Origin: an uncultured archaeon
GTDB lineage: Archaea; Asgardarchaeota; Lokiarchaeia; Sigyniarchaeales; SOKP01
DNA: 28,531 bases
Assembly: GCA_964525635.1 (NCBI GenBank)
Contig: CAZGJX010000048.1
Location: forward strand, 1 to 28,531
Reading direction: 5' to 3'
Numbering within the stretch: the stretch's first letter is position 1; each line of letters begins with the position of its first letter. Of the stretch, positions 3,342 through 28,365 are shown one piece after another. Under the pieces are notes generated by a model. The model made no database searches, had not been told where the DNA came from, and worked only from the letters and a program-made list of their open reading frames with translations. The position numbers were made by a program, and so were the translations under genes.

Positions 3342-4172
3342 TTATATTATCTGACCACAATAATTTCCACCAAAAGGTCTTTTAGAAATTGGTTTTATTA
3401 CTTTAAATGGTTTTTTTCCTATTAACTCATAGGGAATATTAAAAATCTCACAGAATTCTTTTAAATATGATTCCACTTGTTTTAAATCCTCCTCACATGG
3501 TTCAAAAAGCTTAGCTCCAACTCCTAATTTATCCTCTAAATCCTCTTCAGTTCTTAAAAAGATTTTCCCTCTATGTATCCCTGTACCCAATTCATTTCCA
3601 CATATGGAACTTTCATTTTCAATAATATTACCATCAGGAAGGAATTTCAGACCAAGAATTATAATAAGACCTCCAGCCATGTATTCTCCTAAGAAATCTC
3701 TAGCTATCCCCCCAACAATTATCACCGGATGTTTTCTTTCATATTCTTTAATATGGATTCCAACTCTATATCCAACATCTTTTTTTATATAAATTTTTCC
3801 ACCTCTAGCGGATAATCCAATGACATCTCCTCCATCTCCATGAATTATAATAGTTCCATCATTCATTGTATTTCCAGCTTGATCTTCACAACTTCCATTC
3901 ACGGTTATTTTAGGACCATCCATAAAAATGCCTAAATCATTACCAGGTACACCATTTATTTCAAATTCTAGATCTCCTTGAAGTGAAGCACCAATGAATC
4001 TCTGACCACAAACATCGTTTAAGATAATTTTTTTGTATCCTGAATTTACAGCTTCATGGATTTGTTCATTTAATGTTTTATATTCAATTGGTTCTCCATT
4101 AGGAGCGCTATTTATATTAATTATCTTATTATTTTGAATAGTTTTTCCCTTTTGTATTGTATTTTCAACCAT
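3342..4172 (-). CDS. gltB3: Glutamate synthase large-subunit domain 3 (GXGXG beta-helix), archaeal split type
   Basis: GQRFIG, GVPGNDLGIFMDG, GNTMNDG, GYRVGIH, DFLGEYMAGG, GTGIHRG repeats; 3 bp downstream of gltB2. Confidence 0.92.
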   Translation of the reverse strand: MVENTIQKGKTIQNNKIININSAPNGEPIEYKTLNEQIHEAVNSGYKKIILNDVCGQRFIGASLQGDLEFEINGVPGNDLGIFMDGPKITVNGSCEDQAGNTMNDGTIIIHGDGGDVIGLSARGGKIYIKKDVGYRVGIHIKEYERKHPVIIVGGIARDFLGEYMAGGLIIILGLKFLPDGNIIENESSICGNELGTGIHRGKIFLRTEEDLEDKLGVGAKLFEPCEEDLKQVESYLKEFCEIFNIPYELIGKKPFKVIKPISKRPFGGNYCGQII

Positions 4173-4175
4173 TTT

Positions 4176-5696
4176 TTATTCACCTGCATGTTTTACATTT
4201 AAAATTTCAGCTATTCTTGGATTTGGACCAATATAACGTAAACGATCCCTATTTGAACGTAGAGACTCAACAGAATCAATACCCATAGCACCAAGCACTT
4301 CTTTTAATTCTTCATTCCATGAATGAAAAAGATTGATGATTCGATTTCTAGCTACATCAATGTCAAGTCTTTTAACCAGATACTCTCTTTGACTGGCGAT
4401 ACCCCAACTACAGAGCCCCCTAAAGCATTGTTGACATACTCTACAGCCCATAGCAATTAGAACAGGCATTCCAACCATCCCCACATCTGCACCTAATGCT
4501 ATTGCTTTAATCAAGTCCGCAGAATATCGAATTGATCCTCCTGCTACAAGAGTTATTTGGTCTCTTAATCCTTCTTGACGTAATCGTTGATCAACTGATG
4601 CGATTGCCAATTCGATTGGTATTCCTGCATGATCTCTGATAATTCTTGGAGCTGCGCCAGTACCTCCTCTAAAGCCATCTAAGGTAAGAAAATCGGCTCC
4701 GCCTCTCACAATTCCTACTGCTATTGGAGCACTGTTATGTACAGCAGCGATTTTCACACCGATGGGAACTTTATACCTAGTTGCTTCTTTAAGAGCGGCT
4801 ATTAATTGAGCAAGGTCCTCAATAGAATAGATATCATGATGTGGATATGGACTTAAAGCATCAGATCCTTTGGGAATCATTCTTGTTTGGGATATAAGGG
4901 AATTCACTTTTTCTCCTGGTAGATGTCCCCCATGACCTGGTTTTGCTCCTTGTCCTATTTTAATCTCTAATCCTGCAGTATTTTGTAAATATTTAATATC
5001 TACACCAAATCTGCCAGATGCGACTTCTGTAATGATGTTTTTTCCATACTCATAAAAATCGGGATGTAAACCACCCTCCCCAGAACCTGCTAACACATTT
5101 AATTCATTTACTGCTTGATATATTGCCATACACGCATTATAGCTAATGGAACCAAGACTCATATGTCCGATCATCAATGGCATATCTATTTCAAAATGTG
5201 GTAAAAATTCCGTTTTGAGAGACACCTTATTAGGATCTTTAGGATCGACAGAAAAGTCAAGTTGTTGAGGTTTTCGACCAAAAAATATTTTTGTTTCAAT
5301 TGTTTCTCTCAATGGATCAATACTTGGATTCGTAACTTGACAGGCATCTAAAAGTAGATCATCAAATATTGATCTTATTGGTCTATCATTCCCAGTAGCA
5401 CTCAATAAAACACCTCCATTCCCTGATTGTGCCCATATAATATTTCGGATTCGTTGGGTGTAATTTCCATGTTGAGGTAAATAAGATTCATCTTTAACAA
5501 CTCGAATAGCTTTACCTGGACACATTGAAACACAGCGCTGGCAAGCAACACATTTTGAATCATCTGCTATAATTTTCTCGCCATTAAATGAAAGTGCTCC
5601 ATATGAGCAGTGAGAAACACATCTTTTGCATTTCTTACAATAATCTCTATCAATTTTAACCCTGAAATAAGTTGGACTTATATGCTGTAATGACAT
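4176..5696 (-). CDS. gltB2: Glutamate synthase FMN-binding subunit with N-terminal 2x[4Fe-4S] ferredoxin domain
   Basis: CKKCKRCVSHC and CVACQRCVSMCP; QVTNPSIDPLRE; MSLGSIS; SGEGG; VASGRFGV; EIKIGQGAKPGHGGHLPGEKV; HHDIYSIEDL; [3Fe-4S] motif GCRVCQQCFRGLC. Confidence 0.95.
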   Translation of the reverse strand: MSLQHISPTYFRVKIDRDYCKKCKRCVSHCSYGALSFNGEKIIADDSKCVACQRCVSMCPGKAIRVVKDESYLPQHGNYTQRIRNIIWAQSGNGGVLLSATGNDRPIRSIFDDLLLDACQVTNPSIDPLRETIETKIFFGRKPQQLDFSVDPKDPNKVSLKTEFLPHFEIDMPLMIGHMSLGSISYNACMAIYQAVNELNVLAGSGEGGLHPDFYEYGKNIITEVASGRFGVDIKYLQNTAGLEIKIGQGAKPGHGGHLPGEKVNSLISQTRMIPKGSDALSPYPHHDIYSIEDLAQLIAALKEATRYKVPIGVKIAAVHNSAPIAVGIVRGGADFLTLDGFRGGTGAAPRIIRDHAGIPIELAIASVDQRLRQEGLRDQITLVAGGSIRYSADLIKAIALGADVGMVGMPVLIAMGCRVCQQCFRGLCSWGIASQREYLVKRLDIDVARNRIINLFHSWNEELKEVLGAMGIDSVESLRSNRDRLRYIGPNPRIAEILNVKHAGE

Positions 5697-5697
5697 T

Positions 5698-6891
5698 TTA
5701 AACCCCCATAACAGATAATTGTATTTTTTCTAAAGGTTTTTCCAAACCATTATATAATAAACCTTCCCCTACACGTGCGATAATTGCTGTACCACTTTTT
5801 GGATGCCAGATCTCACTAAATTCATATTTAAATTCTTCATTAAGCATAAGTCTCTTGAAACTAGCCTCCTCACTACTTAGGTAAATGGTGTTTTCATCTT
5901 CAGATGCAGCAGCGACTAATGGTCTTAATTTCTTTCTATCTGATAATCCAATCATAGTTGAAGTGGGGTCGTTATATCCTATAACGACTGAAAATGGACC
6001 ATTTAGCATCGCTGATCGATACGTTGCTCTAATATTTTTTAATGCAATCTGATATTTTTTATCCATCTTTTTAATTTCATCAAATAATGGTGGAGCTAAC
6101 GCTAAATTTGCTATTGGTAATGGTAATTTATGTCTTCTAACTAATAAATCAAATAAATATGCAATAACTTCAGTATCCGTAAATAATGTGCATTTATATC
6201 CAAAGGATTCTAGATATCTTTTATTTGTACCATAAGATGTTATTTCACCATTATGTACCACTGATGTACCCAATAAATTAAATGGATGTGCTCCGCCCCA
6301 CCATCCTGGGGTATTTGTTGGAAATCTACTATGAGCAAGCCACATATGTGCTTTATAATCTTTTATATTATAAAATTCTGCGATTTCATGAGACCATCCA
6401 TTTCCTTTGAATACTCCCATATTTTTTCCAGAAGACATTATAAATGCTCCATTAAAATGTTCATTTATTTGCATTACTAAATTTACTATTTGTTCATCGT
6501 TAGAAATACTTTTCATCTGTTTTGGTTCATAAAAAACTCTCCAAATAATTGGAGGATTATCAATATTACTAGGTGTTTTTGTAGGGATAGGTTCTGAATG
6601 AATAATATAACCTATTTTCTCAAGATGAGATAAGACTTTTTCTTTAATTTGCTCAGTATCAAATAAAAAATGAAGTGCATAATAATCTTTATAATTTGGA
6701 TATATTCCATAACCAGCAAAACCAGCTCCTAATCCATTTTCTCTATCATGTAGGATACATAACATATCAATTACTTTAGATCCACTATCACGTTTTCCAT
6801 CAATGTTAAGATATCCAGAAATACCACATCCATCAAATATCCTCTGATTTCGAAAAATTTCAGGTAGACTTGTATAATTCTCCCATTTCAT
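5698..6891 (-). CDS. gltB1: Glutamate synthase glutamine amidotransferase subunit (class II/Ntn)
   Basis: DGCGISG (Cys22 is the probable mature N-terminal nucleophile after a 21-aa propeptide), NGLGAG, AHSRFPTNT, HPF, VVHNGEITSY, TDTEV, DR-x2-LRP. Confidence 0.93.
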   Translation of the reverse strand: MKWENYTSLPEIFRNQRIFDGCGISGYLNIDGKRDSGSKVIDMLCILHDRENGLGAGFAGYGIYPNYKDYYALHFLFDTEQIKEKVLSHLEKIGYIIHSEPIPTKTPSNIDNPPIIWRVFYEPKQMKSISNDEQIVNLVMQINEHFNGAFIMSSGKNMGVFKGNGWSHEIAEFYNIKDYKAHMWLAHSRFPTNTPGWWGGAHPFNLLGTSVVHNGEITSYGTNKRYLESFGYKCTLFTDTEVIAYLFDLLVRRHKLPLPIANLALAPPLFDEIKKMDKKYQIALKNIRATYRSAMLNGPFSVVIGYNDPTSTMIGLSDRKKLRPLVAAASEDENTIYLSSEEASFKRLMLNEEFKYEFSEIWHPKSGTAIIARVGEGLLYNGLEKPLEKIQLSVMGV

Positions 6892-8237
6892 GTTTGACTT
6901 TCCTCTTTAATTTTTTTTAATAATTTTAATAAATCATCAAGTTGCGGTTTATTTGAATCAAGACCAACCCTTTTTCGAGCTGATTTTGAAAACATTGCAA
7001 CAGTTCCCATTTTTCTAAATGATTCAAATTCGCGTTCAAATCCTTTTACAATAAATCCTCTTTCTTTTGCGAGATTACGAAGAATAGTAAATATTTCTAC
7101 TAATCCTATTTTAGATGGACATAATTCATAACAAACATAGCAGTCTAAACACATCCAAATGCTTGGATCTTTTATAATCTGTTCAATTTTTCCATCTAAA
7201 ATATCACCCACTATTTTATTTGGATCAAAACTAGTAATTTTTGCAACAGGACAATCATTATTGCATGCTCCACATGCTTTACATTTTTTTAAAAACTCTA
7301 TATCAAAATAATCTTTAATCTCATCATTTCTTCTATGGATAGAATCTATTTTTTTAAAAATGATATCAACTGGAGTCCTGTGAAACTTTTTAATAATATC
7401 TTTTATTTCAATTCCCAAAGCTATACATAACAATTCAGAATAATATAATACAGGAATATCATAATTATAATCAATTTTCTTTAATTCTTGTTGAAGGTGA
7501 TCAAATTGAATAAAACATTGTGGGCACCCTACCACAATGCAATCTATTCTATATTCTTTCATTGCTTCCAATTTATTTTGAATCATCTCCAAAGCAGAAT
7601 CGGGATTTCCTGCTCTTTCTAGACTTCCTCCACAACAATCCATTTTTCTATCATATTCTATACTTTTAGCTCCTAAATCTTCAATTAAAGAATCAAATAT
7701 ATGGGGCTCCATAGGATCATCCATTTGAATCTTATTACTCGGACGAAGGAAATGACATCCATAATGAACAGCTACCCTCAATCCATTTAAAGGATATTGT
7801 ATATTATCTTTTATTGTATGTTTTCCTAATTTATGAAAAAATTCAACTAAATGAAATACATCAATTTTACCAGAGACATTTAAATCAATATCTCCAAGAT
7901 ATTTATTCATTTCATCACGAAAATTGGGATTTGCTTTTATTTCACTTCTAATACCTTTTAAGGTCTCAAAACAACCATTACATGGAGTTAGAATACTTTC
8001 TTCTTCTTTCTCTGCTAATGCTAGGTTTCTTGATGCAGTTATTGAATAAATAAGCTCATTTGAATTTTTTATACCATTTGGTTCAGGACAACATGAAAAA
8101 TGAGGATTAGGATCTGAAATATTAATTCCAAAAAATTCTAATATTTTTCTAATTGAAACTTCAATAAAAGGGAGCCTATAACTAATAACACATCCAGGAA
8201 ATAACGTTACTTTTTGTTGAATTATATTTAACACCAA
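6888..8237 (-). CDS. hdrBC: Heterodisulfide reductase HdrB::HdrC fusion protein
   Basis: Two CCG domains (FPGC...SCCPEP...RNL...TPCNGC; HYGCHFLRP...DCCGG...GCPQC...QFD) followed by HdrC-type CKACGACNNDCP and IWMCLDCYVCYELCP. The stop overlaps the gltB1 start (ATGA, 6888-6891). TTG or GTG start uncertain. Confidence 0.92.
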   Translation of the reverse strand: MVLNIIQQKVTLFPGCVISYRLPFIEVSIRKILEFFGINISDPNPHFSCCPEPNGIKNSNELIYSITASRNLALAEKEEESILTPCNGCFETLKGIRSEIKANPNFRDEMNKYLGDIDLNVSGKIDVFHLVEFFHKLGKHTIKDNIQYPLNGLRVAVHYGCHFLRPSNKIQMDDPMEPHIFDSLIEDLGAKSIEYDRKMDCCGGSLERAGNPDSALEMIQNKLEAMKEYRIDCIVVGCPQCFIQFDHLQQELKKIDYNYDIPVLYYSELLCIALGIEIKDIIKKFHRTPVDIIFKKIDSIHRRNDEIKDYFDIEFLKKCKACGACNNDCPVAKITSFDPNKIVGDILDGKIEQIIKDPSIWMCLDCYVCYELCPSKIGLVEIFTILRNLAKERGFIVKGFEREFESFRKMGTVAMFSKSARKRVGLDSNKPQLDDLLKLLKKIKEESQT

Positions 8238-8724: not shown

Positions 8725-10374
8725 ATGACAAAATTTTCAATGGTAACTCACAGATCTTCAATGATAGGTACAAGAACTCGAGTAGAAGATTCATGTGAAT
8801 CGGGTTTATGTCCAATATGTACATATGATTGTCCTGTATTTTGTGAGGTTAGTAAAAGTGCCCTTAGAGGTCGTGAAGTACTTTATCCTATGAGAGAATA
8901 CTTTGGGAATTCTACAGCAGGGACTCCAAAAGATTTTGGTTTTTCTTATGGAGATTTTCAAATACAATTTGAGGTTAGAGGAGCAAAAGGCCTTGATAAA
9001 GTTGATGAAGATACTGTAATCTTTCCAAACGTAGATATTTCAACAATGTGGGGAAATATACCACAAAAAGTTCCACTTGTAATCGCTGGTCTTGGTAGTA
9101 CATATGTAGCTAAAAGAAACTGGGATGGATTAGCTATGGGTGCTGCACTTGCAGGTGCTAGTATAACTGTCGGTGAAAATGTAGTTGGAATGGATTCAAA
9201 TGCAAAATTTAATTCAAGTGAAAAATATCCAAAAGTTATTGATACTGAGGATATGAAATATAGAGTAGAAGCATACAGGGAATTTTGGGATGGTACCCAC
9301 GGGGATATTATTATTCAAAAAAATGTTGAAGATACTCGATTAGGTGTTTTTGATTATGTTTTATCTAAATTAGATTGTACTTCCTTGGAGATTAAATTTG
9401 GTCAAGGAGCAAAAGCAATTGGGGGAGAAGTGAGACTTAGTACTTTAGAGAGAGCTCAATTATTACAAAGTAGAGGATATTTAGTTATACCTGATCCTTC
9501 AAATCCGTCTGTAATAGAAGAATGGAATGCCGGACTAATTCCAGATTTTGAGAGACATAGTCGTGTAGGTTTATCATCAACAGAAGAAGTTTTAGAAGAA
9601 ATTGACCAATTAAGATCTGCTGGAGCTAAGAATTTATTTATAAAAACTGGAGCTTATCGACCTGCTGCGACTGCTTGGATTATTAGATTAGCTGTAGAGG
9701 GTAAGGTAGATGGTTTAACATTGGATGGGGCTGGTGGGGGTACTGGAATGAGTCCTGTAAGTATGATGAATGAAGGATCAATACCCACTACTTATTTACA
9801 AGCTTTGACAGTAGGATGTTTAGATATGATAAAGAAAAAAACTCCCAATGCAAAAATCCCAACAGTAGCAATTGCTGGTGGGCTATCTAATGAGACTCAA
9901 ATATTTAAATCATTAGCAATGGGTGCTCCATATGTTACTTGTATCGCAATGGCTCGTGCTCCAATAACAGCTGCTATGAAAGCAAAAAATGTTGGTAAAT
10001 GGATTAATGAAAAATCAATGTCTCGAGGAATGCTTAGTTCATTAGGTTTTCAAAAAGATAAAGATCCAGAAACTCTCACTTTAGCAGAAGCCTTTGTAGA
10101 ATATGATCAATTAAATAGAAAATTCAGTGATAAAGTGATCCCTCCTGCTGCTTTAGGTGTATATACTTATTTTATGAGTAAACTTGGAACTGGATTAAAA
10201 CAACTACTCGCAGGTGTTAGGAAATTTAAATTAAATCTTTTAACCCGAGATGATATTGCTTGTATTTCACAACGATCTATTGACGTATGTAATCATTGGG
10301 ATTTAGGTATAAAATCTCAAGAAGATTTAGACTTAGAGTTAGTAAAGAAAGAAATATATTCTGGAAATTACTAA
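8725..10374 (+). CDS. FMN-binding glutamate synthase family protein, non-canonical type (N-terminal Cys cluster, no amidotransferase)
   Basis: SGLCPICTYDCPVFCEV, RGREVLYP, GLGST, VGENV, NVEDTRLGV, EIKFGQGAKAIGGEV, FERHSRVG, KTGAYRP, DGAGGGTGMSP; clear paralog of 26775..28355. Confidence 0.88.
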   Translation: MTKFSMVTHRSSMIGTRTRVEDSCESGLCPICTYDCPVFCEVSKSALRGREVLYPMREYFGNSTAGTPKDFGFSYGDFQIQFEVRGAKGLDKVDEDTVIFPNVDISTMWGNIPQKVPLVIAGLGSTYVAKRNWDGLAMGAALAGASITVGENVVGMDSNAKFNSSEKYPKVIDTEDMKYRVEAYREFWDGTHGDIIIQKNVEDTRLGVFDYVLSKLDCTSLEIKFGQGAKAIGGEVRLSTLERAQLLQSRGYLVIPDPSNPSVIEEWNAGLIPDFERHSRVGLSSTEEVLEEIDQLRSAGAKNLFIKTGAYRPAATAWIIRLAVEGKVDGLTLDGAGGGTGMSPVSMMNEGSIPTTYLQALTVGCLDMIKKKTPNAKIPTVAIAGGLSNETQIFKSLAMGAPYVTCIAMARAPITAAMKAKNVGKWINEKSMSRGMLSSLGFQKDKDPETLTLAEAFVEYDQLNRKFSDKVIPPAALGVYTYFMSKLGTGLKQLLAGVRKFKLNLLTRDDIACISQRSIDVCNHWDLGIKSQEDLDLELVKKEIYSGNY

Positions 10375-10382
10375 CTACTACA

Positions 10383-10415: not shown

Positions 10416-10516
10416 AAAACTTCTATAAAACAAACTTATATTCATAAATCTTTAAATAAGAGAAAAACGAAGATTAATATCATAACCAATTTATTTTATA
10501 AAATCACGTGATTTAT

Positions 10517-14050: not shown

Positions 14051-14057
14051 ATCAAAA

Positions 14058-20709: not shown

Positions 20710-23328
20710 CTATAAATCAAAATATAATATAGCTGTTTGATTTATGGTGTCAGCGTATATTCTCATTTTCTCTTGATTAGATTCATTATTATATTCAAAA
20801 ACTTTTATTATATCTTCATATTTTTCAACCTCAGGTAAAATTTTAGCTAAGATATTATCCATCTTTGACAATAGGTCCTTATTTAATATAGATTCTTTAT
20901 GTTTAGGATCGATAGCGATGTAAAGCATATCATTTTCAACAAGATCATTGAAAAAGTGAGTTCCTAATGAAGCGTCTGGAGTCAAATTCTCATGCATTTC
21001 AGCTATCTCACAAATAATTGATATTGTATTTATTTCACGAAAAGTCACAGGAATTCCTAAAGAAGGACTTGATGTAGCCCACCTACCAGGACCTGCAAGT
21101 AAAAAGATTTTATCTTCTTGTTTATCCATTTTTTGATTTAGTTTTCCTATTATTCTAGCAATACTACTTCTTTCTTGGTTTGGTAATTTACCATATAATT
21201 CTGGTACTACGTATATTAATCTATCAACCATTTTTGAAATCCCATTACCTATGATCGGTCCATTAGTTTTGAAAATAATATTTTGATCCTTTATATTTTT
21301 AGGTTCTTCTATTTTTTCAGTTTCACTTTTTATCTGAAATGGACGACACTGGAGAATATATATTTTATATTCATTATCTTTGATAAAATTAATAGCAAAT
21401 TCTATATCTATGGAATAATCATACACTTCTGATAATGTACGTAAAATATAATACATATCTTCTATTATGGAAGATTTTAATATTGATTTATCTAAATCAA
21501 GGAAATAATACAATTTTGTTTTTCCTAATTGTTTATATTTCTGTTCAATACTAAAATCACGAGTTCCAAAAAGCTCTATTGGGAGATTTGGTGAATTAAG
21601 AACAATATCATCGAAATATTTAGTGATAAATTTATTGTTTTTTAAGTCAATTACATCAACCTTACGTTGATTATATTTGCGTGTATCCAATAAACTAGTT
21701 TCTGGTCTCTTTTCTGGAATATTTAAAGCGATAATTCGAGTATAATCATCATCATATCTTTCTACTGCTCTAGTTCCTAAACCAAATACTAACCTAATCA
21801 AACCATCTTCGGGTCTTATATCTTTATTCCAAACAAAAGGATTATAAGAATAACCCACACCTGCTAATTGTGGATAAAATAGATTTCCATATAGTGAACC
21901 TGAAACTCTCTGAACTAGAATACCCATTTGTTCATCTTTATCTAATAAATTCCTTCTTAAGCGATAAAATAATGCTTCTTCACTTAAAGTACTTTTATAT
22001 ACCTCTCGAATAGCATTCATGAATTCATCGAGTCTTTGTTCTGGAGTACCTTGATTTGCAAGAAATATACTTTCATATTTTCCAGAAAAAGCATTATCAT
22101 AGGCATCTTCTAATAGACTACTACTTCTAACAATTATAGGAGATTGACCATAATAATTAAGAATTTTTTTAAATTGTTCAATAATATCATTTGGAAATTT
22201 ACCTTTCTCCATAATATTTCTTGCTTCTATTGCATATTTCTTAAAATTTTTATTTTTACGAATCTTATATCTGAGCCACCAACAATCATTAATAACAAGA
22301 TAAGTATAAAATACATCTGCACCTATAAAAAAAGAATCATGTTGCTCTAATTTATGATACCATTTCAGATCTTTTTTCTTTAAGATAGATTGAGCTAATA
22401 ACATTCCTAATGACTTACCACCAATTAAACCTGTCCCAATCATTCTCTTGCCAATATTTATCAAATCCTCTATATTAAAATATTCATTAGCGAGAGGATA
22501 TAATTGGGGATCTTGAGTCATTACCATTCGTATAATTTTCTCTTTAAGAAGATCTAAATCATCCTTTTTAATAGTTTTATTATCATAATTAGCATAACTT
22601 TGATAAGCTTCTCTAAATGTGCTAGTCCATATATCTTGTGTCTTTGATGTAAAATCTATCCATTGTGATGCATATTCTGTAAGTATTTCTGAGATTTTTG
22701 AACTTTTTAATACTGGAATAAATTCCTTGTTTTTCCATATATGGAGCATATACATAGTAGTAGAATGCCTTTTCCATACTTTGATTGGATGGATATAATA
22801 ATTTTTATCTTTTTTATAAACATCAATTATGATTTGGGCAGTGCTATGAATTTTAGATATAGTATATTCACTATGTCTATTTCTTATAAGTGCAAAAAAG
22901 GTTTCTGTTTCAAAATCGAAGAGATAAGGACATGTAAGCATAAAGAAGTTAGCAACCATTCGATCACTATACCAATCTACAGTTAAATCACTCAATGAAT
23001 CAAAAACATAAGCAGCTCTTTTCCCATATTTCTCAATAATAGTAAAAATTTCATCAATAAAATGTTCAAATCCCACCTCTGGATGAACTTCCAAAATGTC
23101 TGCTTTGACATTCTTAGGTATAAGTGAAATATGATTAGCAAATCTAAAATATATTAATTTACGATTCTGAGTATTTTTATCCTTACAAAATGCATGAACG
23201 AAAGGAATAAATTGATCTATTGACTTTATCTGAAACACGATATTATCTCCAGGTAAAATACCATGCAAGATGGTATCTAGACCAGTTATTCCAGTACTAA
23301 AAGTATTTGGATCCATCTTATCTTCCAA
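20710..23328 (-). CDS. PEP/pyruvate-binding (PPDK_N, ATP-grasp) domain protein with N-terminal degenerate KaiC/RAD55-like domain
   Basis: FSTGITGLDTILHGI (no Walker A) and YVFDSLS; then IGGKSLG, IVRSSSLLED...FSGKYES, MGILVQRV, GLGTRAV, DIEFA, ILQCRP; C-terminal GPGRW...LGIPV...SLGTHFF. The start may be ATG at 23316. Confidence 0.85.
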   Translation of the reverse strand: MEDKMDPNTFSTGITGLDTILHGILPGDNIVFQIKSIDQFIPFVHAFCKDKNTQNRKLIYFRFANHISLIPKNVKADILEVHPEVGFEHFIDEIFTIIEKYGKRAAYVFDSLSDLTVDWYSDRMVANFFMLTCPYLFDFETETFFALIRNRHSEYTISKIHSTAQIIIDVYKKDKNYYIHPIKVWKRHSTTMYMLHIWKNKEFIPVLKSSKISEILTEYASQWIDFTSKTQDIWTSTFREAYQSYANYDNKTIKKDDLDLLKEKIIRMVMTQDPQLYPLANEYFNIEDLINIGKRMIGTGLIGGKSLGMLLAQSILKKKDLKWYHKLEQHDSFFIGADVFYTYLVINDCWWLRYKIRKNKNFKKYAIEARNIMEKGKFPNDIIEQFKKILNYYGQSPIIVRSSSLLEDAYDNAFSGKYESIFLANQGTPEQRLDEFMNAIREVYKSTLSEEALFYRLRRNLLDKDEQMGILVQRVSGSLYGNLFYPQLAGVGYSYNPFVWNKDIRPEDGLIRLVFGLGTRAVERYDDDYTRIIALNIPEKRPETSLLDTRKYNQRKVDVIDLKNNKFITKYFDDIVLNSPNLPIELFGTRDFSIEQKYKQLGKTKLYYFLDLDKSILKSSIIEDMYYILRTLSEVYDYSIDIEFAINFIKDNEYKIYILQCRPFQIKSETEKIEEPKNIKDQNIIFKTNGPIIGNGISKMVDRLIYVVPELYGKLPNQERSSIARIIGKLNQKMDKQEDKIFLLAGPGRWATSSPSLGIPVTFREINTISIICEIAEMHENLTPDASLGTHFFNDLVENDMLYIAIDPKHKESILNKDLLSKMDNILAKILPEVEKYEDIIKVFEYNNESNQEKMRIYADTINQTAILYFDL

Positions 23329-23561: not shown

Positions 23562-23578
23562 AATATATTGTATATATT
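23562..23578. promoter_or_regulatory. Palindromic operator candidate AATATA-N5-TATATT (copy 3)
   Basis: AATATA TTGTA TATATT in the divergent promoter between the PPDK_N gene and the second nuoE operon. Confidence 0.5.
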
Positions 23579-23635
23579 ACTTATATTGTTTATATTAATT
23601 GTATCGCTTATATTCGATAAATTGGTAATATTTTT
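23564..23635. repeat. Degenerate 9-bp tandem array TATATTnnn x8
   Basis: tatattgta tatattact tatattgtt tatattaat tgtatcgct tatattcga taaattggt aatattttt. Confidence 0.6.
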
Positions 23636-23746
23636 ATTTTTTTTTACTCGCTTATTATTATTAAAATTTTTTTTATAAAATACAAAAAAGAATATCTTTG
23701 AAATAAAAAATGCCACATTCAAATTAAAAATTAAAGAATAGTTAAA

Positions 23747-24211
23747 ATGACGATAGATGAAACTTTTATTGATAAAACTATAGAAAAAAATAATAGGTCT
23801 CTTATCTCTATTTTACAGGATATACAAGAAAGTTATAATTATTTACCTGAAGAGTCTCTTATTAAAGTTGCAGAAAAAATGCAAATTCCGCTGATAGATG
23901 TATATTCAGTAGTTACATTTTACCATTCATTCTGTCTTATTCCTAAAGGTGAGTATATTATTACTGTTTGTTTAGGAACTGCATGTTATATACGAGGTGG
24001 AAAAAAAATAGTTGATTTATTAACAAAAGAATTGGAAATAATACCAGGGGAGACTACAAAAGATAATAAATTCACACTTGAAACAGTTAATTGCCTTGGT
24101 TGTTGTGCTATTGGACCTATCGTAAAAATAAATAATGAATATCATGGAGAGATGACTCCAAATAAGACAAAGAAACTTATAAAGTCCTTGAAGAGGGAAA
24201 AAAATGACTAA
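23747..24211 (+). CDS. nuoE: NuoE/HydC-like [2Fe-2S] subunit (second copy)
   Basis: LISILQDIQ, YSVVTFYHSF, VCLGTAC, CLGCCAIGP. Confidence 0.92.
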   Translation: MTIDETFIDKTIEKNNRSLISILQDIQESYNYLPEESLIKVAEKMQIPLIDVYSVVTFYHSFCLIPKGEYIITVCLGTACYIRGGKKIVDLLTKELEIIPGETTKDNKFTLETVNCLGCCAIGPIVKINNEYHGEMTPNKTKKLIKSLKREKND

Positions 24212-26042
24212 ATTACTCTCAATAAATGAATTCGATAAAATATCTAAGAAGATTACAGAACGTCAGGATTTTAATAAACATATTATCTCTATATCTTCGG
24301 GTACATGTGGACATGCAAGTGGTTCCATTAAGGTTGCAGAAGCATTAAAACAAGCTGTTAAAGGATATGAAGACAAAATTAGTATAAAACTGACAGGATG
24401 CCATGGATACTGTGCGGCAGAACCTAATATAATAATCTTCCCCCAAAAAGTTTTTTATAAAAATTTAAAGCCAGAGGATGCACCAAATATAATACAATCT
24501 ATATTAAAAGGAGAGATAATTGAAAACTTAGTTATTAAAGAGAATGGAATCAATTATACCCATATTGATGAAATTCCTTTTTATAAATACCAAAAGAATA
24601 TTCTTATAGGAGATAATCCGCTTATAGATCCTAAAAATATCGAAGATTATATAGCAATTGGTGGATATAAAGCATTTTCTAAAGCTTTATGTATGCGACC
24701 TAATGAAATTATTGAAGAGATAAAGAAATCTGGATTGCGGGGTAGGGGAGGAGCAGGATTTTCAACAGGGATTAAATGGGAAGTAGCAAGTAAACAAAAA
24801 AGTGATACAAAATATATAATTTGTAATGCTGATGAAGGGGATCCTGGTGCTTATATGGATAGAAATCTGCTTGAAGGTAATCCACAATTAATTATTGAAG
24901 GTATGATAATCGGGGCTTATGCAATAGGTGCAAATAAGGGATGGATTTATGTTCGAGATGAATATCCCCTTGCTGTGAAGAATATCACAATAAATATTAA
25001 GCAAGCTAGGGAAATGGGCTTTCTTGGTAAAAATATCCTTGGTTCAAGTTTTGATTTTGATATACAAATTACTCGTGGTGCAGGTGCTTTTGTTTGTGGG
25101 GAAGAGACAGCTCTTATTCAATCTATAGAAGGTAAAATAGGTGATCCACGTCAGCGACCTCCTTATCCCGCTCAAATGGGCCTTTTTGGCAAACCTACAA
25201 ATATAAATAATGTAGAAACATGGGCTAATATTCCTAAAATAATTGATAAAGGTGCAGACTGGTATGCTAACATCGGTACCAAGACGAGTAAAGGTACAAA
25301 GATTTTCTCACTCGTTGGTAAAGTTAAAAATACCGGATTAGTTGAAGTACCTATGGGTATTACAATAAAAGATATTGTATATAATATTGGAGGTGGATCT
25401 CCAACTGATCGTAAAATTAAAGCTATACAAACAGGGGGTCCCTCTGGTGGATGTATTCCAGAAGATCTATTTAATTTACCTATCGATTATGAATCGCTTA
25501 AACAGGCTGGATCTATAATGGGATCGGGAGGAATGATTGTATTGGATGAAGATACTTGTATGGTTGATTTTGCAAGGTACTTTACAAATTTCTTACAAAA
25601 TGAATCATGTGGTAAATGCTCATCCTGTAGAGAGGGTATTCAGCGTATGTTTGAAATATTAACAGATATAACCGAAGGTAAAGCAAATGATACAAGTATT
25701 GAGCTACTTGAAGAGCTTGGTAGTGTAATAAAAGATACTTCTTTGTGCGCCCTTGGTCAAACTGCCCCAAATTCTGTACTCACTTCAATTAGATATTTTA
25801 GAAATGAATATATTGCTCATATAAAAGATAAGAAATGTTTCGCAGGAGTCTGTCGGGCATTAATAAGATATAAAATAGATAAAGAGATATGCACTGGTTG
25901 TGGTGTATGTAAAATAAATTGTCCTGAGGGAGCAATAGTAGGTGAATTGAAACAGCCACACCTTATTCTTCAAGATAAATGTATTAAATGTGGAATTTGT
26001 CATGATAATTGCAATTTTAACGCAATTAATTTGGATGTATAA
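24204..26042 (+). CDS. nuoF: NuoF/HydB-like FMN/NAD-binding subunit with BfuB architecture (second copy)
   Basis: GCHGYC, SGLRGRGGAGF, NADEGDPGAYMDR, GAGAFVCGEETAL, ESCGKCSSCR...SLCALG, DTCMV...HIKDKKCFAGVC, CTGCGVCKINCP, CIKCGICHDNC. Confidence 0.95.
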   Translation: MTKLLSINEFDKISKKITERQDFNKHIISISSGTCGHASGSIKVAEALKQAVKGYEDKISIKLTGCHGYCAAEPNIIIFPQKVFYKNLKPEDAPNIIQSILKGEIIENLVIKENGINYTHIDEIPFYKYQKNILIGDNPLIDPKNIEDYIAIGGYKAFSKALCMRPNEIIEEIKKSGLRGRGGAGFSTGIKWEVASKQKSDTKYIICNADEGDPGAYMDRNLLEGNPQLIIEGMIIGAYAIGANKGWIYVRDEYPLAVKNITINIKQAREMGFLGKNILGSSFDFDIQITRGAGAFVCGEETALIQSIEGKIGDPRQRPPYPAQMGLFGKPTNINNVETWANIPKIIDKGADWYANIGTKTSKGTKIFSLVGKVKNTGLVEVPMGITIKDIVYNIGGGSPTDRKIKAIQTGGPSGGCIPEDLFNLPIDYESLKQAGSIMGSGGMIVLDEDTCMVDFARYFTNFLQNESCGKCSSCREGIQRMFEILTDITEGKANDTSIELLEELGSVIKDTSLCALGQTAPNSVLTSIRYFRNEYIAHIKDKKCFAGVCRALIRYKIDKEICTGCGVCKINCPEGAIVGELKQPHLILQDKCIKCGICHDNCNFNAINLDV

Positions 26043-26056
26043 TTTGAGGGATATGA

Positions 26057-26755
26057 ATGCCAAAAATAAAAATTGATGGAATTGAGTTTGATTGTTCAGA
26101 AAATTCAACAATACTTGATGTCGCTAAAATATTAGGAATAGATATACCAACTCTCTGCTATCACGAGGGCCTTTCAAGATGGGGTGGCTGTCGTTTATGT
26201 ATTGTTGAAATAGGAAGAGATGAAAATACTAAACTAGTTTCCTCGTGTACATATCCTGTTCAAGAAGGTCTTATTGTTCGAACTGCAAGTAAAAGGGTTA
26301 TTAATGCAAGAAAAATGATACTTGAACTTTTAATTGCACAAAATCCAACTTCCAAGGTATTACAAGATCTTGCATCAAAAATAGGTTTAAAAGAGGTCAG
26401 ATTCAAACCAAAATGGGAAACTTGTATTTACTGTGGTTTGTGTGTAAGGATATGTAAAGAACAGATGATGGCAAATGCTATTGGATTTGTTAATAGAGGA
26501 AATAAGTTAAAAATAACTACCCCCTTTGATAAAAATTCGGAGGATTGTCGAAGATGTGGTGCGTGCATGTATATATGCCCAGCATGTACAATAAGATGTG
26601 ATGGCCCCAATCCAGAAAGCGTGTTATGTAATGGCTGTTACAATGCACTCCAACCTACATGTTTGGAAGTTTATGATAATTTTTCATGTTGGATGGGATT
26701 AAAAGGTGAATGTGGAACATGTGTAGATATATCAAAGAATCAAAAAAATAAATGA
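26057..26755 (+). CDS. Short NuoG/HoxU-like Fe-S subunit with Cys-rich C-terminal tail
   Basis: IPTLC...GGCRLC...SSC [2Fe-2S]; CIYCGLCVRIC and CRRCGACMYICP; no H-x3-C-x2-C motif; no catalytic domain; GAGGGA upstream. Confidence 0.88.
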   Translation: MPKIKIDGIEFDCSENSTILDVAKILGIDIPTLCYHEGLSRWGGCRLCIVEIGRDENTKLVSSCTYPVQEGLIVRTASKRVINARKMILELLIAQNPTSKVLQDLASKIGLKEVRFKPKWETCIYCGLCVRICKEQMMANAIGFVNRGNKLKITTPFDKNSEDCRRCGACMYICPACTIRCDGPNPESVLCNGCYNALQPTCLEVYDNFSCWMGLKGECGTCVDISKNQKNK

Positions 26756-26774
26756 ATAAAAGGAGATATGAAAA

Positions 26775-28355
26775 ATGGTAAACTTTAAAATAAATGCTTC
26801 AGCTGCAACTCTGTCAAAGAATAGAACTGAGGATTCAGTTGTGCCTGAAAGTGGAATGTGTGCTACTTGTATAGATGGTTGTATTGGTATGTGTGAAGTT
26901 GGAAAATCTGCATATAGAGGTTCAGAAGTACTATATCCAAAACCATTTGGTATGATAACAACTGCAGGTGTAAAAAACTATCATATAAACTTCTCTGATT
27001 TTACAATACAAGGTACATGTATAGGAGCATATGGTATTGATGCCGATTCTGATACCGCTTTGTTCACGAATGTGAATTTAGAACAAAAAATAGGTCATGA
27101 TAAAAAAATAAGGGTAAAACTTCCTATTATTCTTCCAGGACTTGGTTCGACATCTGTAGCGAAAAATAATTGGGAAGGGCTTGCTATTGGAGCAGCACTT
27201 TCAGGAATAATTGTTACAGTTGGTGAAAATGTATGTGGTATGGATCCAAATTCAAAAATACAAAATGGAAAGATTGTATATTCAGAAGATCTTAAAAATC
27301 GAATTAATCTCTATAAAGAATGGCAACAAGATGGTTATGGCGGTATTGTTGTTCAAGCAAATGTAGAGGATACAAAACTTGGCGTACATGAATATGCAAT
27401 AGATAAATTAGGAGTTGAAATAGTAGAACTCAAATGGGGGCAAGGAGCTAAAGATATTGGTGGAGAAGTAAAATTAAAAACTTTACAGCATGCCCAAAGA
27501 CTTAAAGATAGGGGATATATTGTTCTGCCAGATCCATATGATCCAACTGTTATAAATTCATTTGAAAACCATGTTTTTAATGAATTTGAGCGCCATTCAA
27601 GGGTAGGTATGGTAAATGAGGAGACATTCTATAAACGAGTAGAAGAATTAAGATCTTTAGGTGCGAAATATATTTTTTTAAAAACAGGAGCATATAGACC
27701 TAGAGATTTAGCTCTTGCAGTAAAATGTGCATCTGAAGCGAAGATTGATTTGTTAACAGTAGATGCAGCAGGAGGTGGAACAGGAATGAGTCCATGGAGG
27801 ATGATGAACGAATGGGGTGTACCCCGTTTTGAGCTTTGGTCATTTCTTTATCAATATATTGATAAATTATCGAAGAAAGGGAAATATGTACCTGATATTG
27901 CAATTGCCAGTGGTATTTCTATGGAAGATCAGATAATTAAAGGTTTAGCATTAGGTGCCCCCTATTTTAAAATGATAGGTATGGCTAGAGCACCTCTTGC
28001 AGCAGCAATGGTGGGTAAAACAATAGGTAAAAGTATAGATAGTGGTGAATTACCTGTATATATTTCCCGTTTTGGAAGAACAAAAGAAGAAATTTTTATA
28101 ACAACTCCTGAACTTCAACATAAATTTGGGGCTAAATTCGACTCGATACCTACAGGTGCAATTGGTTTATATACTTATATAACTAGACTTAAGCAAGGAC
28201 TTCAACAATTGATGTGCGGAGCAAGAAAATTTGCATTAAAATATATTAGAAGAGATGATATTGCTTCATTAACACATGAAGCAGAGGATATAACTGGAAT
28301 CCCATTTATAATGGATTCAGATAAAGAAGAAGCTGAAAAACTTCTTGATTTCTAA
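26775..28355 (+). CDS. FMN-binding glutamate synthase family protein, non-canonical type (second copy)
   Basis: SGMCATCIDGCIGMCEV, RGSEVLYP, GLGST, VGENV, NVEDTKLGV, ELKWGQGAKDIGGEV, FERHSRVG, KTGAYRP, DAAGGGTGMSP; AAGGAGA RBS; 19 bp after the short nuoG. Confidence 0.9.
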   Translation: MVNFKINASAATLSKNRTEDSVVPESGMCATCIDGCIGMCEVGKSAYRGSEVLYPKPFGMITTAGVKNYHINFSDFTIQGTCIGAYGIDADSDTALFTNVNLEQKIGHDKKIRVKLPIILPGLGSTSVAKNNWEGLAIGAALSGIIVTVGENVCGMDPNSKIQNGKIVYSEDLKNRINLYKEWQQDGYGGIVVQANVEDTKLGVHEYAIDKLGVEIVELKWGQGAKDIGGEVKLKTLQHAQRLKDRGYIVLPDPYDPTVINSFENHVFNEFERHSRVGMVNEETFYKRVEELRSLGAKYIFLKTGAYRPRDLALAVKCASEAKIDLLTVDAAGGGTGMSPWRMMNEWGVPRFELWSFLYQYIDKLSKKGKYVPDIAIASGISMEDQIIKGLALGAPYFKMIGMARAPLAAAMVGKTIGKSIDSGELPVYISRFGRTKEEIFITTPELQHKFGAKFDSIPTGAIGLYTYITRLKQGLQQLMCGARKFALKYIRRDDIASLTHEAEDITGIPFIMDSDKEEAEKLLDF

Positions 28356-28365
28356 TCTATAATTA

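What the first reader, a model, noticed from the sequence alone, without database searches (positions are those of the whole stretch)
3342..28355. A glutamate redox island: three GltB-type FMN enzymes beside several different electron-input modules
Seen: one canonical split glutamate synthase, two non-canonical FMN paralogs, two NuoEF(G) modules, NfnAB, HdrBC, a PPDK_N protein, a glutamine-using guaA and a secreted amidase lie within 25 kb, and the three divergent promoters share a motif. Inference: a co-regulated system that sets the direction of 2-oxoglutarate/glutamate flux (assimilation versus oxidative deamination) according to the thiol, NAD(P)H and ferredoxin pools, as expected in an amino-acid-fermenting anaerobe. 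The 8725 paralog has no adjacent electron donor and might use HdrBC (divergent neighbour) or the 13550-20524 complex.
Basis: inference. Interest (0 to 1): 0.7.

Follow-up and report, generated by a model that had tools for sequence, protein, structure and literature searches.

The report
Glutamate and redox gene neighbourhood, Asgard archaeon
A salt-marsh Asgard archaeon has gathered its only three glutamate-synthase-type enzymes and its only two NADH "bifurcating" modules into 25 kb; these are separately inherited units rather than one switch, but three of them are enzyme combinations I found described in no paper.

Summary
The gene inventory is real. The window is a whole 28.5-kb contig of a Lokiarchaeial (Asgard) MAG from salt marsh.

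**What the region holds**
- A fused HdrB-HdrC gene heads a split archaeal glutamate synthase (GOGAT) operon.
- Two members (A and B) of an uncharacterised Cys4+FMN GltB-like family.
- guaA and a PPDK_N protein.
- A Bfu module whose NuoG-like subunit is fused to NfnS, followed by NfnL.
- A second Bfu module ending in paralog B.

**What the tests showed**
- The claimed shared promoter motif is no better than shuffled sequence.
- The region is not one conserved unit. In relatives it breaks into pieces that recur in changing combinations with gdh, glnA, guaA and nfn. This holds only within one family; in three single-contig genomes of sister families the modules they carry lie 0.4-3 Mb apart.
- HdrBC sat directly beside GOGAT in every locus I could check (16/16). 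A sister family has a ferredoxin plus an NAD(P)H flavoprotein in that operon instead. HdrBC is therefore the likely electron input of GOGAT, not of paralog A.
- Paralog A is a vertically inherited, Asgard-only clade that needs no Bfu module.
- The paralog B operon is a pan-prokaryotic cassette, here of lateral origin. This scan has already reported it on other DNA.

Substrates and co-regulation remain unproven, and no RNA data exist.

The parts
6888..8237 (-). Fused HdrB (two CCG domains) and HdrC (2x[4Fe-4S]) protein. It is the first gene of the GOGAT operon and the likely electron-input subunit.
   Evidence: PF02754 scores 98.7 bits in 2 stretches, with Fer4_8 as well. TIGR03288 scores 257 bits, below its cut-off of 345, and TfrB and SdhE also hit. 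Orthologues lie directly upstream of GATase-FMN in 16/16 loci. All named homologues are Asgard.
5698..6891 (-). Class-II glutamine amidotransferase subunit of the split GOGAT. Cys22 sits in DGCGISG behind a 21-residue leader.
   Evidence: PF00310, 43.9 bits; translation.
4176..5696 (-). GOGAT synthase subunit: an N-terminal 2x[4Fe-4S] domain plus a full FMN domain.
   Evidence: PF01645 scores 422 bits over profile positions 6-368 of 369, with Fer4 hits at residues 13-67.
3342..4172 (-). GXGXG (GltB C-terminal domain) subunit.
   Evidence: PF01493, 108.6 bits.
8725..10374 (+). Paralog A: a stand-alone Cys4+FMN GltB-like protein of an Asgard-only clade.
   Evidence: PF01645 scores 56 bits, a partial match. 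It is 45% identical to paralog B. Its clade of 18 Asgard rows has support 100.
10508..11725 (+). C45-family-like protein with a signal-like N-terminus. It is seen only in this genus, so it is not a conserved partner.
   Evidence: NF040521 scores 66 bits against a cut-off of 85; translation. It appears only in L013 and L103.
11790..13352 (-). guaA, the glutamine-hydrolysing GMP synthase. It is the most conserved neighbour of paralog A.
   Evidence: NF000848, 742 bits. It is adjacent in 10 of 15 loci.
13550..14050 (+). BfuC1 (NuoE/HydC-like [2Fe-2S] protein).
   Evidence: PF01257, 160 bits.
14058..15878 (+). BfuB1 (NuoF/HydB-like). It has an N-terminal 2Fe-2S-like domain and a C-terminal 2x[4Fe-4S] domain.
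   Evidence: PF01512, PF10589 and Fer4 at residues 545-597; 2Fe-2S ferredoxin hit at residues 6-91.
15871..19113 (+). BfuA1, a full-length NuoG-like protein with a degenerate molybdopterin domain, fused to NfnS (an FAD/NAD-binding, [2Fe-2S], PyrK-like domain).
   Evidence: TIGR01973 scores 304 bits. NF004862 scores 298 bits, above its cut-off of 220, at residues 835-1113 of the long ORF. The called product is 1080 aa, and the fusion is widespread in Asgard. No Cys/Sec-His catalytic motif was seen.
19106..20524 (+). NfnL/NfnB (GltD-like, Fer4_20 plus FAD/NADPH domains).
   Evidence: TIGR01316 scores 608 bits against a cut-off of 472.
20710..23328 (-). 872-aa PPDK_N (ATP-grasp, PEP-synthase-like) protein of unknown role. 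It is a recurrent neighbour.
   Evidence: PF01326, 162 bits. It lies next to NfnL in G001, next to HdrBC in G018 and next to paralog A in G024.
23747..24211 (+). BfuC2.
   Evidence: PF01257, 167 bits.
24204..26042 (+). BfuB2, with the complete bifurcating-type architecture.
   Evidence: It matches 7t2r_B, 9n5u_B, 8a6t_B and 9mqx_B over residues 26-610 at 690-756 bits. Non-bifurcating NuoF proteins match only about residues 145-540.
26057..26755 (+). Short BfuA2: a [2Fe-2S] domain, a 2x[4Fe-4S] domain and a Cys-rich tail, with no catalytic domain.
   Evidence: Best solved relative is 9mqx_A (247 aa, E 3e-35); translation.
26775..28355 (+). Paralog B: the Cys4+FMN GltB-like subunit and presumed catalytic end of the Bfu2 complex.
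   Evidence: PF01645, 47.9 bits. The family is 65-88% identical across more than 20 phyla. Operon conservation is 77/77 for BfuA and 60/60 for BfuB. The model has pLDDT 84.

Best explanation
The stretch is not one machine. It is a lineage-specific neighbourhood of five or six separately inherited transcription units. All of them handle glutamate/glutamine nitrogen or the NAD(P)H/ferredoxin pools.

1. **hdrBC-GATase-FMN-GXGXG.** This is a glutamine-dependent archaeal GOGAT. I infer that the Asgard-specific fused HdrB-HdrC protein is its electron-input subunit. Electrons would run from the HdrB CCG clusters through the HdrC clusters and the N-terminal clusters of the FMN subunit to FMN. The donor is most likely a thiol/disulfide couple or an Hdr-type partner, by analogy with thiol:fumarate reductase TfrAB.
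2. **Paralog A.** A vertically inherited, Asgard-only, stand-alone member of a Cys4+FMN GltB-like family. It is probably reduced directly by ferredoxin (inferred).
3. **guaA.**
4. **bfuC-bfuB-bfuA::nfnS-nfnL.** An NfnSL transhydrogenase physically fused to a Bfu NADH/ferredoxin module.
5. **The PPDK_N protein.** Its role is unknown.
6. **bfuC-bfuB-short bfuA-paralog B.** A pan-prokaryotic, type-2 Bfu-style enzyme that this lineage acquired laterally. NADH and ferredoxin electrons would be exchanged with the FMN subunit through the short BfuA.

The A/B family most likely acts on the 2-oxoglutarate/glutamate couple with free ammonia. This rests on gene neighbours and sequence relationship only.

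**Shown:** the gene content, the operon structure, the conservation patterns and the lateral origin. **Inferred:** the substrates, the electron donors, any bifurcation and any common regulation.
For: **Operons and clustering**
- Operon tightness can be read from the coordinates: 4-nt and 8-nt overlaps and gaps of 1-19 nt.
- All PF01645 and PF01512 genes of the genome lie on this contig.

**HdrBC with GOGAT**
- They lie on the same contig at the spacing of one GATase gene in at least 12 relatives.
- They are directly adjacent in 16/16 loci from families f1, f10, f18 and f21, at 37-78% identity.
- HdrBC-fusion orthologues occur only in genomes that also have this GOGAT.
- Family f2 has a 155-aa Fer4 protein and a 424-aa Pyr_redox_2 protein inside the operon instead of HdrBC.

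**Paralog A**
- It forms an Asgard clade that follows the family structure.
- Its neighbours are guaA, gdh, glnA and nfn.
- No NuoF homologue is found in 14 of 19 genomes that carry it.

**Paralog B**
- Among 40 relatives it is found only in G000.
- Its operon is conserved in 80 loci from more than 20 phyla.
- With L020 it nests among Bacteroidota, Clostridia and Desulfatiglandales rows, apart from the other archaeal rows.
- BfuB2 and BfuA2 match solved bifurcating enzymes over their full length.

**Link to glutamate**
- gdh lies within 8 kb in 16 of 80 loci and glnA in 7 of 80.
- hhalign against the canonical FMN subunit gives probability 96.6% and aligns the GQGAK and GGTG motifs.
- Glutamate synthase is the top Foldseek match.
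- An FrhB-fused family member exists, of the kind discussed as an F420-dependent glutamate synthase (PMC9012536).

**Physical linkage.** A contig from another sample bridges PPDK_N to the start of bfuC2.
Against: - No expression data exist and no regulatory motif was found. Functional coupling of the units rests on neighbourhood alone.
- Relatives share ancestry, so repeated adjacency overstates the independent support.
- In single-contig genomes of sister families the modules are dispersed.
- The fold does not single out glutamate synthase. By VIA-align, alpha-hydroxy-acid oxidases and IDI-2 tie at Z 25-26.
- The A/B family lacks the amidotransferase, the GXGXG partner and the internal cluster cysteines.
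- The HdrB part is below NCBIfam's HdrB cut-off. No HdrA gene is nearby and no thiol cofactor is known for these archaea.
- The tree is FastTree only and unrooted, so the direction of transfer is inferred.
Confidence: 0.55

Rival explanations
1. The whole 25 kb is one co-regulated island whose three FMN enzymes set the direction of 2-oxoglutarate/glutamate flux according to the thiol, NAD(P)H and ferredoxin pools.
For: - The clustering is extreme: every GltB-type and NuoF-type gene of the genome is here.
- Subsets recur together with gdh and glnA in relatives.
- In G222 the paralog-B operon also sits between guaA and gdh genes.
- A TATATCTG(N0-3)ATATA palindrome stands in two of the three divergent spacers and occurs only 8 times in the genome.
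Against: - No word shared by the three spacers exceeds shuffles.
- The palindrome was defined after seeing it and is missing from the third spacer.
- The full set occurs only in this genome.
- HdrBC and Bfu1 are not partners of paralog A.
- No RNA data exist.
Confidence: 0.15
2. The neighbourhood has no functional meaning. It is inherited gene order plus one chance insertion of a mobile operon, and the shared 'glutamate' labels come from homology of the parts.
For: - The linkage holds only within one family.
- In the single-contig genomes G033, G032 and G038 the modules they carry lie 0.4-3 Mb apart.
- Paralog B is a laterally moving cassette.
- guaA is convergent with paralog A, so the two are not co-transcribed.
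Against: - The adjacencies survive rearrangement in different orders and orientations: L007, L008, L012, L102 and L103.
- The gdh and glnA association of the paralog-B operon recurs in unrelated phyla.
- Four independent units within 25 kb of 4.45 Mb would be expected at about 7e-7 under random placement (my estimate).
Confidence: 0.15
3. Paralogs A and B are not glutamate enzymes. They would be Fe-S/FMN dehydrogenases for another 2-oxo or 2-hydroxy acid or imine, for example 2-hydroxyglutarate or lactate, as in the confurcating lactate dehydrogenases. The glutamate label comes only from Pfam.
For: - VIA-align ranks flavocytochrome b2, glycolate, lactate and mandelate oxidases and IDI-2 at Z 25-26, and no glutamate synthase is among the top 50.
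- Only positions 185-303 of the 369-position Pfam profile match.
- No amidotransferase, GXGXG partner or internal cluster cysteines are present.
- A gdh neighbour would also fit a step after 2-oxoglutarate.
Against: - Sequence profiles link the family specifically to the glutamate synthase FMN domain. The Lys-bearing GQGAK motif, the GGTG motif and the HH-type motif all align.
- Glutamate synthase is the top Foldseek match.
- glnA and gdh are neighbours.
- FrhB fusions resemble proposed F420-dependent glutamate synthases.
Confidence: 0.25

Closest known systems
WorABCSL, the tungsten aldehyde oxidoreductase Bfu enzyme of Acetomicrobium mobile (PDB 9MQX; PMC12318220). It is a type-2 Bfu enzyme in the scheme of Schut et al. 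2022 (PMC9304861).
   Same: - It has the same BfuC, full-architecture BfuB and short catalytic-less BfuA of about 240 aa, which hands electrons to a separate catalytic subunit.
- 9mqx_A is the best solved match of 26057-26755 (E 3e-35).
- 9mqx_B matches BfuB2 over its full length.
   Different: - The catalytic partner here is a Cys4+FMN GltB-like protein, not a tungstopterin enzyme.
- No such partner is mentioned in PMC9304861: the terms 'glutamate', 'GltB' and 'Glt' each occur 0 times.
- No activity has been shown.
Nfn-Bfu (NfnABC/Stn; PMC7483475, PMC11829005, PMC12018979) and the classical NfnSL/NfnAB.
   Same: - The 13550-20524 operon has BfuC, BfuB, a BfuA-type subunit and a GltD-like NADPH flavoprotein.
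- NfnL scores above the TIGR01316 cut-off and NfnS above the NF004862 cut-off.
   Different: - In described Nfn-Bfu enzymes BfuA carries the NfnL-like domain.
- Here a full-length NuoG-like BfuA is fused to NfnS, and a complete NfnL is encoded separately. That amounts to a whole NfnSL joined to a whole Bfu core.
- Relatives G011 and G021 have unfused NfnS-NfnL at the same place.
Thiol:fumarate reductase TfrAB of Methanothermobacter. The comparison rests on my own knowledge; the NCBIfam TfrB model NF004898 hits at E 7e-23.
   Same: An HdrB/HdrC-like CCG iron-sulfur subunit is encoded with, and feeds, a flavoenzyme that reduces a carbon substrate.
   Different: - The partner here is a three-protein glutamine-dependent GOGAT.
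- The HdrB and HdrC parts are fused in B-to-C order.
- The thiol donor is hypothetical and nothing has been assayed.
Archaeal-type split glutamate synthase (Methanocaldococcus-type three-gene set) and the proposed F420-dependent glutamate synthases (FGltS; PMC9012536).
   Same: - The amidotransferase, Fer4+FMN and GXGXG proteins are encoded separately.
- Electron-input modules vary between lineages.
   Different: - The operon starts with an Asgard-specific HdrBC fusion.
- Family f2 uses Fer4 plus Pyr_redox_2 instead.
- My searches found no paper that links Hdr-type proteins to GOGAT.
The FMN (synthase) domain of glutamate synthase (PF01645; PDB 1OFD, 1LLW).
   Same: - It is the top Foldseek match.
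- hhalign gives probability 96.6%.
- The GQGAK and GGTG motifs align.
   Different: - Only part of the profile matches.
- The Fe-S cluster is bound by an N-terminal CxxCxxxCxxxC motif instead of internal cysteines.
- There are no amidotransferase, central or GXGXG domains.
- No natural solved structure is found by sequence.

Membership tests
Archaeal-type split glutamate synthase | Class-II amidotransferase subunit with a nucleophile Cys | tested here: met
   PF00310 scores 43.9 bits. Cys22 lies in DGCGISG after a 21-residue leader. Removal of the leader is assumed.
Archaeal-type split glutamate synthase | Full FMN synthase domain with Fe-S input, plus a GXGXG subunit | tested here: met
   PF01645 scores 422 bits over profile positions 6-368 of 369. 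Fer4 hits lie at residues 13-67. PF01493 scores 108.6 bits.
Heterodisulfide reductase HdrBC | Two CCG domains plus a 2x[4Fe-4S] HdrC part | tested here: met
   PF02754 matches in 2 stretches at 98.7 bits, with Fer4_8 at residues 316-377. The cysteine motifs were read.
Heterodisulfide reductase HdrBC | Scores as an HdrB equivalog and is associated with HdrA | tested here: not met
   TIGR03288 scores 257 bits against a cut-off of 345. There is no hdrA in the window. The gene sits in the GOGAT operon.
Bfu (BfuABC) electron-bifurcating enzymes | BfuB with an FMN/NADH site, extra N-terminal 2Fe-2S and C-terminal 2x[4Fe-4S] domains; BfuC; a BfuA-type Fe-S subunit | tested here: met
   Both modules have these features (Pfam and NCBIfam). 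BfuB2 matches 7t2r_B, 9n5u_B, 8a6t_B and 9mqx_B over its full length, and BfuA2 matches 9mqx_A. BfuB1 was not compared with solved structures.
Bfu (BfuABC) electron-bifurcating enzymes | Coupled reduction or oxidation of NAD and ferredoxin with a third substrate | not testable with these tools
   This needs purified enzyme.
NfnSL/NfnAB transhydrogenase | NfnS (FAD/NAD, 2Fe-2S) and NfnL (2x[4Fe-4S], FAD, NADPH) as a free heterodimer | tested here: not met
   Both parts score above their cut-offs: NF004862 at 298 against 220, and TIGR01316 at 608 against 472. NfnS, however, is fused to the NuoG-like BfuA.
Glutamate synthase FMN domain family (PF01645), for paralogs A and B | Passes the Pfam gathering score | tested here: met
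   Paralog A scores 56.1 bits and paralog B 47.9 bits against a cut-off of 20.4. Only profile positions 185-303 match.
Glutamate synthase FMN domain family (PF01645), for paralogs A and B | Internal Cys motif for the [3Fe-4S]/[4Fe-4S] cluster, with amidotransferase and GXGXG partners | tested here: not met
   There are no cysteines where the canonical subunit has its cluster cysteines. No such partner genes lie in the operon. An N-terminal Cys4 motif is present instead.
Glutamate synthase FMN domain family (PF01645), for paralogs A and B | Acts on 2-oxoglutarate/glutamate | not testable with these tools
   Only indirect evidence exists: the GQGAK Lys aligns and gdh and glnA are neighbours. The fold ties with alpha-hydroxy-acid oxidases.
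Single co-regulated genomic island or regulon | A shared operator or promoter motif in the divergent spacers | tested here: not met
   The best shared words are matched in 58-100% of shuffles.
Single co-regulated genomic island or regulon | Conserved as a unit in relatives | tested here: inconclusive
   Subsets recur within family f1. The whole set is seen only in G000, and the modules are dispersed in sister families.

The most novel reading that the evidence does not exclude
This Asgard archaeon wires the 2-oxoglutarate/glutamate couple to three different redox pools through three FMN enzymes:
- a thiol- or Hdr-linked glutamine-dependent GOGAT (HdrBC-GltB);
- a ferredoxin-linked ammonia-dependent enzyme (paralog A);
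- an NADH plus ferredoxin bifurcating or confurcating enzyme (Bfu-paralog B).

An NfnSL-Bfu super-transhydrogenase lies beside them. Glutamate would then serve as a central electron sink and source in syntrophic amino-acid fermentation. HdrBC would also answer the old question of what reduces archaeal-type GOGAT.
Probability: 0.2. Interest if true: 0.8.

Novelty: new variant of a known kind. Interest (0 to 1): 0.6.

Why it matters
- **Archaeal GOGAT.** To my knowledge the physiological reductant of archaeal-type glutamate synthase has never been established. The strict HdrBC-GOGAT operon in Asgard archaea, and its replacement by a ferredoxin plus an NAD(P)H flavoprotein in a sister family, give a direct and testable candidate.
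- **Bfu-GltB-like enzyme.** The operon occurs in hundreds of anaerobic species. It would add a nitrogen-metabolism reaction to the Bfu family.
- **NfnSL-Bfu fusion.** It is Asgard-wide and joins two different bifurcating machines.
- **Asgard metabolism.** Together these parts bear on how the closest archaeal relatives of eukaryotes balance NADH, NADPH, ferredoxin and perhaps thiols during amino-acid fermentation.

The 'island' itself is of modest interest. Its parts are the real finds.

Tried and rejected
Context came from the search for related loci, the genome search and the fetch from genomes instead.
- **Expression.** No RNA holder was listed for the stretch, so co-expression could not be tested.
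- **Shared promoter motif.** I tested it by the best common word against shuffles and rejected it. The exact pattern ATATCTG(N0-2)GATAT occurs once in the window.
- **Solved structures by sequence.** For paralog B, and for the family profile, only designed TIM barrels matched.
- **Bfu1 as a formate dehydrogenase-HydBC.** I rejected this. There is no Molydop_binding domain and no Cys/Sec-His motif.
- **Paralogs A and B as recent tandem duplicates.** I rejected this. They are 45% identical and sit in separate clades.
- **HdrBC or Bfu1 as the partner of paralog A.** I rejected this on co-occurrence.
- **Literature.** Searches for Hdr with glutamate synthase, and for Bfu with glutamate synthase, found no description.
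- **Not attempted or not possible.**
  - Multimer structure prediction was not on offer.
  - The joint seen could not be re-examined because read laying is capped at one call.
  - The metagenome-contig scan was not used.

Full report
**What is there.** The window is the whole contig C48 of a 4.45-Mb, 245-contig genome with 26.8% GC. The closest homologues are named Promethearchaeota or Lokiarchaeota, and the DNA is held by salt-marsh metagenomes.

The refinements are these.

- On the minus strand, four genes with a 4-nt overlap and gaps of 1 and 3 nt form one operon:
  - a fused HdrB(2xCCG)-HdrC(2x[4Fe-4S]) protein, 6888-8237;
  - a class-II amidotransferase, 5698-6891;
  - a 2x[4Fe-4S]+FMN synthase subunit, 4176-5696;
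  - a GXGXG protein, 3342-4172.
- Paralog A (8725-10374) and paralog B (26775-28355) are 45% identical to each other. They relate to the canonical FMN subunit only at profile level: hhalign probability 96.6% over 259 columns at 26% identity.
- Both carry a nearly invariant N-terminal CxxCxxxCxxxC motif and keep the GQGAK and GGTG motifs. They have no cysteines where the canonical subunit binds its internal cluster.
- The 13550-20524 operon encodes BfuC, BfuB, a NuoG-like BfuA fused to NfnS, and NfnL. The fusion protein truly starts at 15871 and is 1080 aa long. Its molybdopterin-like part is degenerate and shows no catalytic Cys/Sec-His.
- The 23747-28355 operon encodes BfuC, BfuB, a 232-aa BfuA without a catalytic domain, and paralog B.

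**Is the clustering more than chance?** The only three PF01645 genes and the only two PF01512 genes of the genome lie on this contig. For four independent units in 25 kb of 4.45 Mb, random placement gives about 7e-7 (my estimate).

The two paralogs and the two Bfu modules are not recent duplicates. The paralogs are 45% identical and the BfuB proteins 55%, and the paralogs sit in separate clades.

The claimed common promoter motif fails. The three spacers have 15% GC. Their best shared 10-16-mers are equalled in 58-100% of dinucleotide shuffles.

**Comparative genomics.** I compared 40 relatives from the same genus, family and order.

- *Paralog B* is found only in this genome. Paralog A orthologues occur in 14 of 24 genomes of family f1, 4 of 4 of f4 and 0 of 11 of f2.
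- *Neighbours of paralog A.* The conserved ones are guaA (10 of 15 loci), a glutamate dehydrogenase (6 loci, sometimes in tandem), glutamine synthetase (5 loci) and NfnS-NfnL or Bfu-NfnS/NfnL.
- *Changing order.* G024 reads Bfu-NfnS/NfnL-gdh-PPDK_N-paralog A-guaA. G021 and G011 read paralog A-guaA-NfnS-NfnL(-gdh). G018 has PPDK_N next to HdrBC-GOGAT. G002 has the window's order but without paralog A.
- *Limits of the linkage.* In the single-contig genomes G033, G032 and G038 the modules they carry lie 0.4 to 3 Mb apart.
- *This genome.* glnA lies on another contig. The family-type gdh is missing, and only a 31%-identical ELFV dehydrogenase is present.

The island is therefore a family-level neighbourhood that is rearranged from genome to genome. 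It is at its fullest in this genome.

**HdrBC belongs to GOGAT.**

- Full-length orthologues of the fusion lie on the same contig as the FMN subunit, at the spacing of one GATase gene, in at least 12 relatives.
- In a 200-genome sample of the phylum, they lie directly upstream of GATase-FMN in 16 of 16 loci with enough flank. These loci span four families at 37-78% identity.
- All named homologues are Asgard.
- Family f2 genomes carry the same GOGAT without HdrBC. They have a 155-aa 4Fe-4S protein and a 424-aa Pyr_redox_2/Rubredoxin_C flavoprotein between the FMN and GXGXG genes. G033 has the bare three genes.

This swapping of modules is what one expects of interchangeable electron-input subunits. 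The nearest analogy is thiol:fumarate reductase TfrAB (my knowledge; a TfrB model hits). The donor itself is inferred.

**Paralog A.** It forms an Asgard-only clade whose branching follows the families (FastTree). Fourteen of the 19 relatives that carry it have no NuoF homologue. It occurs both with and without the HdrBC-GOGAT operon. Direct reduction by ferredoxin through its Cys4 cluster is the simplest inference.

**Paralog B and Bfu2.**

- The protein is 65-88% identical across more than 20 bacterial and archaeal phyla. At 50% clustering the family has only about 15 full-length clusters.
- In 80 loci, the short BfuA precedes it in 77 of 77 with enough flank, BfuB in 60 of 60 and BfuC in 54 of 56. 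A GltD-like part, in frame with BfuB in L020, is present in 36 of 60. The window has the form without GltD.
- BfuB2 matches the BfuB subunits of solved bifurcating enzymes over its whole length. BfuA2 is most like the 247-aa BfuA of WorABCSL, 9MQX.
- The window's paralog B groups with that of Promethearchaeota 33X4 (G222). Both nest among Bacteroidota, Clostridia and Desulfatiglandales rows, apart from the Thermoplasmatota and Methanobacteriota rows. That indicates lateral origin.
- In G222 the operon lies between guaA-gdh and two more gdh genes. That genome has neither paralog A nor the HdrBC fusion.
- A contig from a different sample (X4) covers 23110-23756, reaching only 10 nt into bfuC2 (starts 23747), under the tool's 31-letter bridging rule. 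The only full bridge, 22849-23977, is from X2, a possible source sample. Depth is even across the region.

**What do A and B do?**

- The AlphaFold model (pLDDT 84) is an FMN-type (beta/alpha)8 barrel.
- Foldseek puts glutamate synthase 1OFD/1LLW first. VIA-align ties alpha-hydroxy-acid oxidases and IDI-2 at Z 25-26. The fold alone therefore does not fix the substrate.
- The case for 2-oxoglutarate/glutamate rests on four things: the sequence relationship, gdh and glnA neighbours in many phyla, an FrhB-fused member, and published proposals of F420-dependent glutamate synthases (PMC9012536).
- Schut et al. 2022 do not mention such a partner. I found no paper describing it.
- This scan has already reported the same operon on other DNA several times, and separately for 23747-28355 of this window.

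**Verdict.** The 'one co-regulated switch' reading and the proposed donors for paralog A are not supported.

The value lies in three undescribed combinations: HdrBC-GOGAT, NfnSL fused to Bfu, and Bfu with a GltB-like subunit. It also lies in seeing them together in an Asgard archaeon.

Noticed in passing
window 23682-28471: In two salt-marsh runs (X4 at depth 5, X5 at depth 2) a contig joins 23682 to 28471 through 40 other letters. This would be a form lacking the whole Bfu2-paralog B operon. Both sides are AT-rich and the right side can be at most 61 nt, so this may be a repeat artefact.
   Followed up: partly
window 8270-8284 and 13466-13478: The palindrome TATATCTG(N0-3)ATATA stands in two of the three divergent spacers and only 8 times in the 4.45-Mb genome. 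I defined it after seeing it, so it is a weak lead for an operator.
   Followed up: partly
L120:5899-7637 and L121 (family f2 genomes G035 and G039): The split GOGAT operon of a sister family carries a 4Fe-4S protein and an NAD(P)H-type Pyr_redox_2 flavoprotein between the FMN and GXGXG genes, in place of HdrBC. In L121, glnA is divergent next to it.
   Followed up: partly
window 15871-19113; proteins P0274-P0363: The NuoG-like::NfnS fusion is widespread in Asgard archaea (Loki-, Hel-, Thor- and Heimdall-labelled MAGs, about 890-1100 aa). Shorter forms of about 830 aa occur in Desulfobulbus and Dehalococcoidia. It is annotated only as a 'sulfide/dihydroorotate dehydrogenase-like' protein.
   Followed up: partly
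P0215 (800 aa, metagenome protein): A member of the paralog A/B family is fused to an N-terminal FrhB/FdhB-type (F420-binding) module with a 4Fe-4S dicluster. This is a third kind of electron input for the same catalytic domain.
   Followed up: partly
L045, L073, L086, L097 (bacterial paralog-B loci) and window 20710-23328: PPDK_N-type proteins (24-33% identical to the window's) lie within a few kb of the Bfu-paralog B operon in four unrelated bacterial loci, and next to paralog A, NfnL or HdrBC in Asgard relatives. The role is unknown.
   Followed up: no
window 20525-20709, compared with L007: In G024 a gdh gene sits between NfnL and PPDK_N, but in this genome that gap is 185 bp. The family-type gdh is not found anywhere in the assembly; there is only a 31%-identical ELFV dehydrogenase on C95.
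   Followed up: partly
window 5698-6891: The amidotransferase has a conserved 21-residue leader before the presumed nucleophile Cys (DGCGISG). This implies propeptide removal, as in some other Ntn amidotransferases.
   Followed up: no
window 26597-26755 (BfuA2 residues about 181-232): The short BfuA ends in a tail with seven further cysteines beyond its three predicted clusters. This is a possible extra cluster facing the Cys4 end of paralog B.
   Followed up: no
window 3-2931: Four ORFs upstream of the finding have no Pfam or NCBIfam family. The 339-aa one has four paralogues elsewhere in the genome, on C14, C1, C58 and C51.
   Followed up: no
G002:C251:1972-3591: A same-genus relative has a 1021-aa BfuB::GltD-type open frame near a contig end. 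It may therefore carry a paralog-B-type operon that the assembly cuts off, even though paralog B itself was not found there.
   Followed up: no
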